A DNA stretch of 64,000 bases from Escherichia coli. GTDB lineage: Bacteria > Pseudomonadota > Gammaproteobacteria > Enterobacterales > Enterobacteriaceae. The DNA lies in NCBI RefSeq assembly GCF_048403405.1, contig NZ_CP183131.1; one strand, 5' to 3'. The first letter of the stretch is position 1; each line of letters starts with the position of its first letter. Position numbers: made by a program. Below are positions 6,001 through 9,000 of this stretch, piece after piece.

Positions 6001-9000
6001 GCGCCCAGTTTGTTCAGTTACGACAATCTTGTTGACGGGCTCGTTCTCCATTCCTTTTCCGGTAGGAGGGATGGCCGCAACTTTTGCGTACCGTGGCGGT
6101 AGTCGTTTGATAAGAGAGGACAGGTTCGTTAAGTCGCGGCACATGGCCGAGAATTGTTCTGATATGAAGTTTTTAGCCATGCTGCCGCCTATGTGTGGGT
6201 TTGTTCTAACAGTTCATTGGTTACATAGTAGACAGATTTAGACCATCATGCAACGAGGGGGAGGGGCAAGAATACGCCTCCGCTTCGCGTCGGCGGGTGC
6301 CCTGTTTGACCTTCGTGTGTGAGATTAGATTGAGAAAGAGAGAGAAAGAGAGAAAAAGAGAGAAAGAAGAAAAGCGCGGGGCAAGCCAGAAATGTGGCTG
6401 AGGGGGACTGCTGGGGTGGGGCTGGCACCCTCTATACCCCACTTTGCATGATGGTCTAACTTTGTGGTTATAGGACGACTTTTAGAGTGCCTAGATTTGC
6501 TCGATTAGGACAAATTTCGGTCCATCCACGCTGATTGGCGTAGCAGCGCGATGGCATCAGAAGGGGTAACTTTCCATGCGTTGGAAAGCTGGCGAACTGC
6601 GAAGACTGCGAGCTCCATTCGGTCGTCATCATTGATGAAATTCTGGAGCTGGTTTCCTCGCTCACTAAGGATGATCGCAACACCGGCCTTGCCGTTGTTG
6701 TAAACCGCAAAGCTCTTATTCTTCGCGTCGCCGTGATAGGAACCCTCAGCCTTGCTACGCAAACCAAAGAGAACGCTGCAAAACGCCGTCAGTTCGCCGC
6801 GAGTGAGCTGCACCGTGATCTTGCTTTTCCAGTCTGGGCTGGACCCCGATGCCCTGATCGGCGCAATCTCGATGCTGACCGTAGGATATTCACCTCTGGT
6901 TAGCGTGTGTTGCACATTCAGGCCGGTGCGTTTCGCGGGGTCCTTCTGCCAGTCTGAGAAAAATTTGAGACTTTCGCCGTAGGATTGTTCTGTCATTCCA
7001 AATTACCTTTGCTTTGAAGCTCCTGGAGCTGGACCACGAGGTCACGTTGGACTTTGGCTATCTCTGTCACCAAGTCGGCGGTGGCAATAGCGTCGGTCGC
7101 TGCTGAATGGGCTCGACCTTTCCAGCTCACACCTGCCTCGCAGGTGGCATCCGCAAGTGAGATTGTGCCGTGCCGGTTGGTTGAGCCAAAGGCATCAGCC
7201 GCCAGCTTCATCGCGCACAGACAGTTCTGCTCTTGCCACCAAGAGAGTTGGTCTCCAAATGCACTGGCTGTTTGCCTCAACATCCTACTGTCGAAACTGG
7301 AGTTAAATATCACCAGATGACGGCCCGACAAAAGCCGGGCGAGAGCTGGCGCAACTTGAGTCCACGTAGGCTCATTCGACAGCTCAGTCTCGGTGATGCC
7401 ATGAACACCCATTGCCTGAGGGTCTATTTCCACGGTTGGCCGTAATCTGGTGCAGAGGAGAACCGCGCCTCTGATGTCAGTAACAGCCAGCTCGATCACC
7501 TGGTCTCTTTCACCAAGTCCGGTCGTCTCGGTATCGAGAACCAGAGGTTCCAGAGCGACCCACCTTTGTGCCATGACAGAGGCCTTTGCCAGGTTGCTAC
7601 GCATTCTTGCCTTGACCGAAAGGATGGATTGCGCCCTTATTTGCTTTTGTGATGCCGGTGAACAACCCCTTCTCCGCATTGGTTGGCAATCTGCTATCCG
7701 GTACACTCCAAATTGGCCACCATACCCGTTTTTGTAGAACGAAACTGGCTCTACTCCTGGCTTAGGCTTCATCCGAAATTCGTCCCTGAGCCGTCCTTTT
7801 GAAAAGCACCTATCGGCTTTCATGGCTTCGGCTCTGGCAAGTTCGAGTTCTTCATCATTCATGCTGTTAATCCGCTATATCGAGGCGTTGGCTCGCTCTC
7901 TTCAAACGCTCATCGCCGCGTCTGTCATATTTCTGGGTAGTTGCAATGCTTGAGTGGCCCATTGCGTCCTTCACGGTCACAATATCCTCACCGTTATCCA
8001 GCATCGAGGAGGCAAAGGTGCGTCGCAGGTCATGGGGCGCAAACATCTCCAGACCGGCTTCAACTCTTCTGGTCTCCAAGATGTGGTAGATGGCCTGATC
8101 CGACATCCGCTCTCCAGTCACATCATCAAACCGCCTGATCCTCGGGAATAAAGGCCCTTCATGCGTTCCTCGAACCTCTTCAACCCACTTATCCAGTCTT
8201 TTCCATGCGCCACCAGGCACATACGCCATTCTCTCTTTGTTGCCCTTGCCAAGAACCTTGAGAGCGCGGTCCTTGTAGATCATGCTTCCCATGTCCAGCG
8301 CAACGATTTCCGAGCGGCGCAAGCCACACCCGAGGAGCACCCCGAGAATGGCCGCATCCCGAAGCCCTTTGGCGCTTGAATCACTTTCACATGTGAAAAA
8401 GAGGCTGCGAATCTCATGGCGTTCAAGTGCCCGCCCTTTAGGAAGTCGAGATCCACGTACTGAACGGACTTGCTTAATGTGCTGGAAGCTATCCGTATCA
8501 ATTTGCTTCATCGTCCAGGCTTCAAGAGCCACCCCTTTGAGCGCTGACAGGTAGGTGTTGATCGTTGCCGGAGCCTTCCCTGCATCCCCCAGCATTTCCA
8601 GCACCGCCAATATGTGGTGCCGCCTCATTGAGCTCCATGCACAGTCACGAAGGTTCTGAAACCCGATCATCTTGGCGACAATGTTGAGGAATGAGCTCAT
8701 GGTCTGCCTGCTTCGCTTTGACCCGAGGCTCACCAGATAGGCGACGGCGGGGTTGTCCTGGATGTTCCGGAGCGAGCTCGATGACGGCAACAGTTCACCG
8801 CGAATGCTTTGTTCTGCCGGAACATTTACTTTCGCATGTGAAACTAGCTCTTCCTTGTCATTGTTTGTGTCGTGCAAAGTTACCTCCTAAGCCCGACCGC
8901 AACGAGAAGAAAATCCCATATTTTGAGGTGAAGAGGTAGTTCCTCCTCCATATGTTGCGTTTCGTAGCTTTGCATCAGTGGTTCAAACTTGGTTGGATTG

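What the first reader, a model, noticed from the sequence alone, without database searches (positions are those of the whole stretch)
6238..6459. Perfect 16-bp inverted repeats enclosing a GA/CT microsatellite next to the recombinase operon
TTAGACCATCATGCAA at 6238-6253 and its exact reverse complement at 6444-6459 bracket 190 bp that contain a 43-nt GA-rich tract and GC-rich segments. Candidate roles are a recombination site for the adjacent integrase, a MITE-like element, or a structured non-coding RNA. The homopurine tract could also vary in length.
Basis: seen in the sequence. Interest (0 to 1): 0.5.

Follow-up and report, generated by a model that had tools for sequence, protein, structure and literature searches.

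The report
Plasmid replication-terminator (Ter) site pair
The two 16-bp inverted repeats are most likely a back-to-back pair of binding sites for the replication-terminator protein Tus encoded by the adjacent gene, which would make a 200-bp trap for replication forks on a widespread multidrug-resistance (IncC) plasmid, with a length-variable GA tract in the middle.

Summary
TTAGACCATCATGCAA (6238-6253) and its exact reverse complement (6444-6459) flank a 43-nt purine tract (6332-6374).

The window is IncC (IncA/C2) plasmid backbone. The element fills the gap directly upstream of a plasmid tus gene (5266-6180, minus strand).

In 14 lineages whose Tus is 47-99% identical, both arms are 100% conserved while the DNA around them is only 44-68% identical. 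Two more distant Tus clades carry different arm sequences in the same layout: inverted pair, GA tract between, then tus. Those arms contain GTATGTTG, which is positions 6-13 of E. coli Ter.

Moritella chromosomes have one exact copy of the IncC arm 52-67 bp upstream of their tus, with no partner and no GA tract.

The tus-proximal arm has the orientation of TerB upstream of E. coli tus, so both presumed fork-blocking faces point inward. A complete IncC plasmid carries only these two copies.

Best reading: a self-encoded, very compact Tus-Ter fork trap whose proximal site probably also autoregulates tus.

The integrase-site, MITE and RNA readings are not supported. The mapped IncA/C recombination site (RecHS) lies at 10054-10141. 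The predicted GA-tract length variation is confirmed (25-57 nt).

Tus binding and fork arrest were not tested.

The parts
6238..6253 (-). tus-proximal Ter-like site. It reads 5'-TTGCATGATGGTCTAA-3' on the tus-sense (minus) strand, 58-73 nt upstream of the tus ATG. The presumed non-permissive (G6) end faces the GA tract.
   Evidence: The 13-mer core is exact in all 14 lineages compared. It has the same position and orientation as TerB upstream of E. coli tus and as the single copy upstream of Moritella chromosomal tus.
6444..6459 (+). Distal Ter-like site, the exact inverted copy. The presumed non-permissive end also faces the GA tract.
   Evidence: It is 100% conserved across lineages. It is missing only where IS26-associated rearrangement removed it in pRA1 and in the chromosomal Moritella loci.
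6332..6374 (.). 43-nt homopurine/homopyrimidine tract with a roughly 10-bp unit AGAGAGAAAA. It contains mirror repeats and roughly helically phased A-runs. It is preceded by a conserved lead-in GAGATTAGATT (6321-6331).
   Evidence: A purine/pyrimidine tract lies between the arms in all three site-variant clades. Its length is polymorphic among IncC plasmids.
6254..6331 (.). GC-rich spacer between the proximal arm and the tract. It contains the direct repeat GGGGCAAG at 6263-6270.
   Evidence: Poorly conserved (inter-arm identity 44-68%). Plasmid pJNE4-2-NDM has a 115-bp deletion between this repeat and its copy at 6378-6385.
6375..6443 (.). G-rich spacer between the tract and the distal arm. 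It contains the second GGGGCAAG (6378-6385) and GGGGTATAG next to the arm.
6225..6253 (-). Putative tus promoter overlapping the proximal site: -35 TTGCAT (6253-6248), 17-nt spacer, -10 TACTAT (6230-6225). This is an inference.
   Evidence: In the sequences printed, a -10-like hexamer (TACTAT, TACGAT, TAAAAT, TATTAA) follows TTGCAT at 17-18 nt in the diverged lineages I checked by eye. The consensus scanner did not call a promoter here, so the support is weak.
5266..6180 (-). tus: plasmid-encoded DNA replication terminus site-binding protein. It is 304 aa here and 291 aa in most IncC plasmids.
   Evidence: NCBIfam NF002810, E 8.5e-159, 527 bits against a cutoff of 323. PDB Tus 1ECR, E 2.6e-21. 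Homologues carry Pfam PF05472.

Best explanation
The two arms are cognate Ter-type binding sites for the Tus protein encoded immediately downstream. Each arm is asymmetric, as expected for a monomeric, polar binder.

The sites are inverted so that both presumed non-permissive faces (the end aligned with G6/C6 of E. coli Ter) point inward. A fork arriving from either side would pass the first Tus-Ter complex and be arrested at the second. Replication of the plasmid would then finish inside the roughly 190-bp interval that holds the GA tract.

The pair lies about 18 kb from repA/oriV on one side and about 110 kb on the other. The short-arm fork would therefore be parked early, and most of the plasmid would be copied by one fork, which is effectively unidirectional replication.

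The tus-proximal site probably overlaps the tus promoter and would let Tus repress its own gene, as TerB does in E. coli.

Shown here: the sequence, its conservation, co-variation of the site with the Tus clade, its orientation, its copy number and its linkage to tus. Inferred: Tus binding, polar fork arrest, autoregulation, and any role for the GA tract (candidates are H-DNA or a phased A-tract bend).
For: (1) The adjacent gene is a confident Tus family member.

(2) Phylogenetic footprint. In 14 lineages (IncC, IncA, and elements from Edwardsiella, Aeromonas, Pseudoalteromonas, Vibrio, Shewanella, Xenorhabdus, Photorhabdus, Marinobacterium, Alcanivorax and a Rhodospirillaceae MAG; Tus 47-99% identical) both 13-mer arm cores are 100% identical. 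The flank, inter-arm DNA and leader are 44-92% identical, and 44-69% in all but the close relative Photorhabdus.

(3) Co-variation with the same architecture. pPm60 and Providencia (Tus 31%) have the arms TTGTATGTTGGCATAT. A Morganella plasmid and a Paenochrobactrum MAG (Tus 41-43%) have TTGTATGTTGGTCTAG. Each is an inverted pair 142-290 bp apart with a GA tract between the arms.

(4) Similarity to Ter. Those two variants contain GTATGTTG, which equals positions 6-13 of E. coli TerB. The IncC arm keeps G-ATG-TG (6 of 8) and ...CTAA.

(5) Position and orientation match TerB followed by tus in E. coli K-12.

(6) Tus is the only constant neighbour. The integrase and orf163 are absent from many loci that carry the pair.

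(7) Moritella chromosomes carry one exact copy, TTGCATGATGGTCTA, 52-67 bp upstream of their tus, without a partner or tract. The motif therefore belongs to tus and not to a mobile cassette.

(8) A complete 128-kb IncC plasmid has exactly two copies and none elsewhere at 1 mismatch or fewer.

(9) Cumulative GC skew of that plasmid has its minimum at about 3 kb (repA/oriV) and its maximum at about 110 kb (pair at 111.7-111.9 kb). Plus-strand genes have a mean skew of 0.09 before the pair and 0.03 after it (p=0.026).

(10) E. coli Tus residues I79, F140, G149, E49, K89, K175, R232 and Q237 are conserved in IncC Tus. The list of pocket residues is from memory of Mulcair et al. 2006.

(11) In pPm60 the pair and tus sit within about 0.5 kb of the rep gene. 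This parallels the tus-next-to-origin arrangement of the Pseudoalteromonas chromids, most of which replicate unidirectionally (PMC7858055, PMC6549158).
Against: No binding or fork-arrest data exist for this protein or these sites.

The IncC arm matches the E. coli Ter core only partly: 10 of 17 positions with a 1-nt gap, and the TAAC core is absent.

H144 of the E. coli cytosine pocket is R in IncC Tus, and R198 falls in an alignment gap.

The GC-skew shift is modest, is not significant at third codon positions, and is confounded by mosaic accessory DNA.

The promoter assignment failed the consensus scan.

Several plasmid tus loci (IncT, Moellerella, Klebsiella, Paraferrimonas; Tus 33-44%) showed no such pair in the flanks available.

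One IncC plasmid lacks the GA tract and one lacks the distal arm. Neither part is therefore strictly essential for plasmid survival.
Confidence: 0.7

Rival explanations
1. The arms bind Tus (or a Tus-like factor) only as transcriptional operators or for another non-replicative purpose, such as plasmid pairing or partition. In this reading there is no replication fork arrest.
For: The proximal arm sits where a promoter is expected, 58-73 nt upstream of the tus ATG, with a -10-like hexamer at a fixed distance. TerB autoregulates tus in E. coli (established knowledge). Moritella keeps only the tus-proximal copy within the 4-kb flanks read.
Against: The distal arm is equally invariant yet faces the 3' end of an upstream gene and has nothing obvious to regulate. 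The inverted, inward-facing arrangement is exactly that of a fork trap. The GC-skew turning point coincides with the pair. Tus-family proteins have no known function other than Ter binding.
Confidence: 0.12
2. The arms are binding sites for a different, unidentified protein (host- or plasmid-encoded, for example orf163 or KfrA). Their association with tus would then be positional only.
For: orf163 (no known domain) co-occurs with tus in IncC-like, Marinobacterium, Alcanivorax and Rhodospirillaceae loci. No binding experiment exists.
Against: orf163, kfrA and the integrase are all absent from the Aeromonas, Pseudoalteromonas, Vibrio and Moritella loci that keep the identical motif. The site sequence changes when the Tus clade changes. 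It also resembles E. coli Ter.
Confidence: 0.08
3. One reading: a recombination site for the adjacent tyrosine recombinase, for inversion or resolution between the two arms.
For: A tyrosine recombinase gene lies 1.4 kb upstream. The inter-arm segment is inverted in Xenorhabdus hominickii relative to IncC (57% identity when inverted, 45% when direct), so exchange between the arms has happened at least once.
Against: The experimentally mapped RecA-independent recombination site of IncA/C plasmids (RecHS) lies at window 10054-10141 (PMC5587640). The pair occurs without the integrase in more than 10 lineages. Each arm lacks the two-half-site plus 6-8-bp spacer structure of tyrosine-recombinase cores. 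One inversion across this much divergence fits rare template switching or homologous exchange at inverted repeats near a stalled fork.
Confidence: 0.04
4. A structured RNA: a long hairpin in the int-exo-orf163-tus transcript, or a small RNA, formed by pairing of the two arms.
For: Both strands fold better than shuffles (z = -4.3 and -4.0), though this follows directly from the 16-bp perfect repeat.
Against: There is no Rfam match even at E up to 10. The arms are invariant, with no compensatory substitutions, across Tus divergence down to 47%. The interior is inverted in one lineage. A single arm exists alone in Moritella. No terminator or promoter was called.
Confidence: 0.04
5. A MITE-like non-autonomous mobile element bounded by terminal inverted repeats.
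For: It has terminal inverted repeats and is small (222 bp).
Against: It is single-copy in the window and in a complete plasmid. It is always at the same place upstream of tus in more than 1000 plasmids. The flanks (AGAT / CTTT) form no target-site duplication. The interior diverges while the ends stay fixed.
Confidence: 0.01

Closest known systems
E. coli Tus-TerB (a Ter site immediately upstream of tus)
   Same: A Tus-family protein is encoded next to an asymmetric site on the same strand and in the same orientation. TerB ends 11 bp before the tus ATG; the IncC site ends 57 nt before it. They share G-ATG-TG at Ter positions 6-13. Related plasmid variants share GTATGTTG exactly.
   Different: Tus is only about 27% identical. 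The 3' half of the site differs (GGTCTAA against TAACTAA, one base shorter). The opposing site is 190 bp away rather than hundreds of kb. A polypurine tract lies between the sites. The system is plasmid-borne.
R6K plasmid terminus: two roughly 20-bp Ter sites as an inverted repeat within about 200 bp (Horiuchi & Hidaka 1988, recalled from memory)
   Same: A plasmid carries two closely spaced, oppositely oriented polar terminators that form a miniature fork trap.
   Different: R6K relies on the host's Tus and has E. coli-type Ter sequences. IncC encodes its own Tus and has a divergent site. I recall no GA tract in R6K, and this was not checked here.
'Type I' narrow chromosomal fork traps of non-Enterobacteriaceae Enterobacterales (Toft et al. 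2021, PMC8707476)
   Same: The Ter next to tus is an innermost trap site, and as few as two Ter sites suffice.
   Different: The narrowest chromosomal traps reported there are 18-56 kb. This one is about 0.2 kb and has a different Ter sequence.
'Mobile' plasmid-borne tus genes and the tus next to ori2 of Pseudoalteromonas chromids (Galli 2019, PMC6549158; Xie 2021, PMC7858055)
   Same: It belongs to the same family of mobile tus genes. pPm60 also has tus next to rep. Most Pseudoalteromonas chromids, which carry tus next to ori2, replicate unidirectionally (PMC7858055).
   Different: Those papers did not identify the cognate ter sites. Xie 2021 reports failing to find E. coli-like ter on the chromid. 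Here a candidate site family is defined.
RecHS, the IncA/C recombination hot spot (Hegyi 2017, PMC5587640)
   Same: Both are inverted repeats in non-coding DNA of the same backbone region.
   Different: [quoted passage not shown] It is a different sequence and a different locus.

Membership tests
Tus-Ter replication fork barrier | A Tus-family (PF05472 / TIGR02648) protein is encoded by the replicon | tested here: met
   NCBIfam NF002810, 527 bits against a cutoff of 323, and TIGR02648 E 2.5e-30. PDB 1ECR E 2.6e-21. Homologues carry PF05472.
Tus-Ter replication fork barrier | An asymmetric 16-23-bp site related to the Ter consensus, including G6 and the G10/T12/G13 core | tested here: inconclusive
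   The IncC arm TTGCATGATGGTCTAA aligns with TerB AAGTATGTTGTAACTAA at 10 of 17 positions with a 1-nt gap. G6, A8, T9, G10, T12 and G13 are kept and the TAAC core is not. Sister plasmid variants carry GTATGTTG exactly. The arm is not palindromic.
Tus-Ter replication fork barrier | A Ter site lies next to tus with its permissive face toward the gene | tested here: met
   The strand and orientation match E. coli K-12 TerB-tus. The same holds in all plasmid lineages and in Moritella chromosomes.
Tus-Ter replication fork barrier | Sites of opposite polarity are arranged so that forks enter but cannot leave | tested here: met
   The two arms are inverted and the G6-equivalent ends face each other. 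Polarity is inferred from the alignment to TerB and was not measured.
Tus-Ter replication fork barrier | Cytosine-lock pocket residues of Tus are conserved (I79, F140, H144, G149 in E. coli; list recalled from Mulcair 2006) | tested here: inconclusive
   I79, F140 and G149 are conserved. H144 is R in the IncC, Aeromonas and Pseudoalteromonas types, and H in the Vibrio, IncT, Morganella, Moellerella and Klebsiella types.
Tus-Ter replication fork barrier | Specific Tus binding and orientation-dependent fork arrest | not testable with these tools
   This needs EMSA or footprinting, 2D gels, or marker-frequency analysis. The only indirect signal is the GC-skew turning point at the pair.
Tyrosine-recombinase core site (dif/cer/loxP/RecHS type) | Two recombinase-binding half-sites flank a 6-8-bp central region | tested here: not met
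   The arms are 190 bp apart, and 142-290 bp in relatives. Neither arm has internal dyad symmetry.
Tyrosine-recombinase core site (dif/cer/loxP/RecHS type) | Consistent linkage to the recombinase gene | tested here: not met
   The integrase is absent from the Edwardsiella, Aeromonas, Pseudoalteromonas, Vibrio, Marinobacterium and Moritella loci that carry the motif. The mapped RecHS is at 10054-10141.
MITE / small non-autonomous transposon | Multiple dispersed copies with target-site duplications | tested here: not met
   There is one copy per replicon. The location is fixed in more than 1000 plasmids. There is no direct repeat at the ends.
Known structured RNA family (Rfam 15) | Covariance-model match, or compensatory base changes in the stem | tested here: not met
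   There is no relevant hit at E up to 10. The arms are invariant, so there are no compensatory changes.

The most novel reading that the evidence does not exclude
The unit Ter / polypurine tract / inverted Ter / tus is a portable, self-contained fork-trap cassette and the ancestral plasmid form from which chromosomal Tus-Ter systems were domesticated. The conserved GA tract, with its mirror repeats and roughly 10-bp phased A-runs, is a functional third component. It may be an H-DNA or bent-DNA zone that fixes where the two forks fuse, and it expands and contracts by slippage there. The cassette makes IncC-type plasmids replicate essentially unidirectionally. The same site family (TTGCATGATGGTCTA) would also supply the so-far unidentified ter sites of marine Gammaproteobacteria such as Moritella.
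Probability: 0.3. Interest if true: 0.75.

Novelty: new variant of a known kind. Interest (0 to 1): 0.6.

Why it matters
IncC/IncA plasmids are major carriers of multidrug resistance, yet the role of their 'ter' gene and the way they terminate replication are not described in any paper I could find.

A defined cognate site gives an immediately testable Tus-Ter pair that is orthogonal to the E. coli one. It would be useful for three purposes: studying how the lock mechanism evolved, testing whether these plasmids replicate unidirectionally, and serving as a second polar barrier tool.

It bears on the proposal that chromosomal tus was domesticated from plasmids (PMC6549158).

It may also give a lead on the open question of the ter sites on Pseudoalteromonas chromids, where an E. 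coli-like search failed (PMC7858055). Only Pseudoalteromonas plasmids were examined here, not the chromids.

A 0.2-kb trap is about 100 times narrower than the narrowest chromosomal trap described (18 kb; PMC8707476).

The always-present, length-variable polypurine tract between the sites is unexplained and may reveal something about fork fusion.

Tried and rejected
Rfam scan of 5000-8000 at E up to 10 gave only chance-level hits.

The promoter/terminator consensus scan of 6000-6700 called nothing. The promoter proposal therefore rests only on a conserved -10-like hexamer seen by eye.

The RNA folds are significant, but trivially so because of the perfect repeat.

The MITE idea was rejected on copy number and fixed location.

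The integrase-site idea was rejected after locating RecHS in the window and after the linkage analysis.

orf163 as the binder: it has no Pfam or PHROG domain and is absent from many loci that carry the motif.

Four literature searches for IncA/C or IncC combined with Tus/ter/termination terms found nothing relevant. The 'RecHS' and 'pMS6198A' searches were uninformative. Fricke 2009 is not held.

My home-made dinucleotide shuffle for inverted-repeat counts behaved oddly, giving inflated palindrome counts.

A GC-skew test on pPm60 was not completed; only the first 50 kb was fetched.

No inverted pair was found upstream of tus in the IncT, Moellerella, Klebsiella, Morganella psychrotolerans or Paraferrimonas loci within the flanks held.

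Pseudoalteromonas chromid and Aeromonas chromosomal tus loci were not retrieved. The genome scan used a single peptide pattern.
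Full report
OBSERVATION. The finding is accurate. TTAGACCATCATGCAA lies at 6238-6253 and its exact reverse complement at 6444-6459, 190 nt apart. The repeat extends imperfectly to 29 nt. Between the arms is a 43-nt homopurine run at 6332-6374 with a period of about 10 nt. An exact inverted 16-mer within 400 nt is expected about 0.006 times per 64-kb window (own arithmetic). No further copy with 2 or fewer mismatches exists in the window. It is the only spaced perfect 16-bp inverted repeat in the window.

CONTEXT. The window is IncC (IncA/C2) plasmid backbone. The 324-bp intergenic region matches more than 1000 plasmids from Klebsiella, Salmonella, Escherichia, Vibrio, Aeromonas and other genera, once per plasmid. 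All the neighbouring genes are on the minus strand. Their order is hyp178 (8880-9416), tyrosine recombinase (7867-8877), DEDDh exonuclease (6993-7862), orf163 (6505-6996), this element, then a gene at 5266-6180. That gene is a confident Tus, a DNA replication terminus site-binding protein: NCBIfam NF002810 at 527 bits against a cutoff of 323, and PDB 1ECR at E 2.6e-21.

COMPARATIVE ANATOMY. I collected tus loci from plasmids (tblastn), from one genome per species and from the large protein collection.

In 14 lineages whose Tus is 47-99% identical to the IncC protein, the 13-14-nt arm core TAGACCATCATGC(A) is exact in both arms. These lineages are IncC, IncA, and elements from Edwardsiella, Aeromonas, Pseudoalteromonas, Vibrio, Shewanella, Xenorhabdus, Photorhabdus, Marinobacterium, Alcanivorax and a Rhodospirillaceae MAG. 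The arms are always inverted, and the proximal arm ends 44-58 nt upstream of the approximate tus start. A purine/pyrimidine tract of at least 18 nt lies between the arms in all but one of them (Vibrio sinensis). The 25 nt outside the pair, the inter-arm DNA and the leader are only 44-69% identical in all but the closest relative. Arm spacing varies from 161 to 268 nt centre to centre. This is a protein-binding footprint. It is not an RNA stem, because there are no compensatory changes. It is not a transposon end, because there is one copy at a fixed place.

CO-VARIATION. Two more distant Tus clades have different arms in the same architecture. pPm60 and a Providencia chromosome (Tus 31%) carry GAAATATGCCAACATACAAA / TTTGTATGTTGGCATATTTG, 142 nt apart, with a GA tract between them. 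A Morganella plasmid and a Paenochrobactrum MAG (Tus 41-43%) carry TTGTATGTTGGTCTAGAT as an inverted pair about 290 nt apart, with a GA tract read between the arms in the Paenochrobactrum locus; the pair lies one gene upstream of tus.

Read toward tus, the proximal arms form a graded series:
- E. coli TerB: AAGTATGTTGTAACTAA
- Morganella type: TTGTATGTTGG-TCTAG
- pPm60 type: TTGTATGTTGG-CATAT
- IncC type: TTGCATGATGG-TCTAA

GTATGTTG is positions 6-13 of Ter, including G6, whose partner C6 forms the Tus-Ter lock. In E. coli K-12, TerB sits on the tus-sense strand and ends 11 bp before the ATG. The plasmid arms have that same strand and orientation.

By analogy, the non-permissive face of the proximal arm points away from tus, and that of the inverted distal arm points toward tus. 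Both therefore face the GA tract, which is the geometry of a fork trap. The polarity of TerB (it blocks clockwise forks) is taken from established knowledge.

INDEPENDENT CHECK. Moritella chromosomes have a resident-looking tus in a conserved chromosomal context, at about 2.23 of 5.04 Mb in CP056120. They carry one exact TTGCATGATGGTCTA 52-67 bp upstream of tus in the same orientation, with no distal arm and no GA tract. The motif therefore belongs to tus itself. The dyad and the tract are seen here on plasmids, contigs of unknown replicon type, and one chromosomal Providencia copy, but not at the Moritella chromosomal tus.

LINKAGE. tblastn of the IncC neighbours against all the loci shows that the integrase, exonuclease, orf163 and kfrA are each missing from many loci that keep the pair. 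Only tus is constant. orf163 has no recognisable domain.

WHOLE PLASMID. In the complete 128,238-bp IncC plasmid NZ_CP031802, repA is at 1-1101 and the 13-mer core occurs exactly twice (111,694 on the minus strand and 111,903 on the plus strand). There are no other copies at 1 mismatch or fewer. The three extra hits at 2 mismatches match the chance expectation of 2.8.

The cumulative GC skew is lowest at about 3 kb and highest at about 110 kb. Plus-strand CDS have a mean skew of +0.09 from 4 to 111.6 kb and +0.03 (pooled 0.008) from 112 to 128 kb, although gene orientation does not change (Mann-Whitney p=0.026; third positions show the same trend but not significantly). This fits one fork copying about 110 kb clockwise and the other copying about 16-18 kb counter-clockwise, meeting at the pair. 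It is only modest evidence.

In pPm60 the pair and tus lie within about 0.5 kb of the rep gene. This recalls the tus-next-to-ori2 arrangement of the Pseudoalteromonas chromids, most of which replicate unidirectionally (PMC6549158, PMC7858055).

PROTEIN. In an alignment with E. coli Tus, the residues I79, F140, G149, E49, K89, K175, R232, V234, K235, Q237 and R288 are conserved in IncC Tus. H144 is R in the IncC type, and H in the Vibrio, IncT, Morganella, Moellerella and Klebsiella types. R198 falls in a gap. The assignment of I79/F140/H144/G149 to the C6 pocket is from memory and was not confirmed in the papers I could read.

THE GA TRACT. Among near-identical IncC plasmids all length differences in the region lie in the tract: 25, 27, 35, 43 (this window), 45, 55 and 57 nt. 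These correspond to gain or loss of the roughly 10-nt unit AGAGAGAAAA plus occasional 2-nt changes.

One plasmid (pJNE4-2-NDM) has lost 115 bp, including the tract, between the direct repeats GGGGCAAG (6263-6270 and 6378-6385) and keeps both arms. pRA1 has lost the distal arm, with an IS26 nearby. In Xenorhabdus hominickii the whole inter-arm segment is inverted (57% identity to IncC when inverted, 45% when direct).

The tract is a homopurine mirror repeat, so it can in principle form H-DNA, and its A-runs recur at roughly one helical turn, so it may be bent. Which property matters, if either does, is unknown. Its presence in all three site-variant clades and its absence at the single Moritella site suggest that it is tied to having two opposed sites close together.

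REJECTED READINGS. The recombination site of the IncA/C backbone has been mapped experimentally. [quoted passage not shown] Exactly that structure is at window 10054-10067/10074-10087 and 10115-10127/10129-10141, 3.6 kb from the finding. The MITE and RNA readings fail for the reasons given above.

KNOWN OR NEW. Tus-Ter, a Ter next to tus, plasmid-borne 'mobile' tus genes and the R6K inverted Ter pair are all known (PMC8707476, PMC6549158; R6K from memory). I found no paper that defines the Ter sites of IncA/C-type Tus. Xie et al. 2021 state that E. coli-like ter could not be found on the Pseudoalteromonas chromid. I therefore file this as a new variant of a known kind: a self-encoded, sequence-divergent, roughly 0.2-kb dyad trap with a conserved polypurine centre. 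The literature library is incomplete, so prior description in a subscription journal cannot be excluded.

VERDICT. The best explanation is a compact Tus-Ter fork trap plus a tus operator (confidence 0.7). Tus binding, polarity, autoregulation and the role of the tract are inferred and were not shown.

Noticed in passing
window 10054-10141: This is the experimentally defined IncA/C recombination hot spot RecHS. IR2 is 10054-10067/10074-10087 (14 nt, 6-nt spacer). IR1 is 10115-10127/10129-10141 (13 nt perfect, 1-nt spacer), 27 nt away. It lies between the divergent ORFs 9715-10035 (-) and 10198-10860 (+). Its cognate recombinase was not identified in Hegyi 2017, and the tyrosine recombinase at 7867-8877 is the obvious candidate.
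   Followed up: partly
window 5270-5307 (and 1-5307): Identity to the pSN254 backbone stops at 5307. There a 38-bp inverted repeat GGGGGAACCGCAGAATTCGGAAAAAATCGTACGCTAAG (minus strand; Tn1721/Tn3-family type, identified from memory) replaces the tus stop codon. Tus is therefore 304 aa instead of 291 aa. The same 304-aa variant occurs in at least 4 other plasmids. To the left lie an MCP fragment (4072-5118), an IS1380-family transposase fragment (3014-3886), an IS5 transposase (2028-2996) and a truncated PqqU-like TonB receptor (874-1899). kfrA, uvrD and traF, which normally follow tus, are not there.
   Followed up: partly
L018 (Xenorhabdus hominickii NZ_NJAI01000013) 2769-2942: The DNA between the two Ter-like arms is inverted relative to IncC, so the GA strand is on the tus-sense strand. 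Exchange or template switching between the arms has therefore occurred in nature. pPm60-type loci also have GA on the tus-sense strand.
   Followed up: partly
L037 (Shewanella pJNE4-2-NDM), equivalent to window 6263-6385: A 115-bp deletion between the direct repeats GGGGCAAG removes the GA tract but keeps both arms. It is a natural 'tract-less' variant that could be used to test the tract's function.
   Followed up: no
L042-L045 (Moritella chromosomes; CP056120 at about 2.234 Mb): Chromosomal tus genes have a single exact IncC-type site upstream. Moritella is not among the three clades that Galli 2019 listed as having a resident tus. A weaker inverted match (TTGCATGTTGGTATT, 3 mismatches) lies about 150 bp downstream of tus inside a TM2-domain gene.
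   Followed up: partly
window 6505-6996 (-): orf163 has no Pfam, NCBIfam or PHROG match. It lies immediately upstream of the Ter pair in the IncC, Xenorhabdus, Photorhabdus, Marinobacterium, Alcanivorax and Rhodospirillaceae loci (57-98% identity), so it often travels with tus. Its function is unknown.
   Followed up: partly
window 6437-6443 / 6254-6260 and relatives: A G-rich motif (GGGGTATA / TATACCCC) lies 3-5 nt inside the arms, on the presumed non-permissive side, in many lineages. In some, such as Aeromonas L006 and L007, it extends the inverted repeat to 27 nt. It may be part of the extended site.
   Followed up: no
window 13557-17819 (-): A 1420-aa ORF corresponds to the RHS-repeat protein of the IncC backbone. 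The pSN254 annotation shows rhs at the equivalent place.
   Followed up: no
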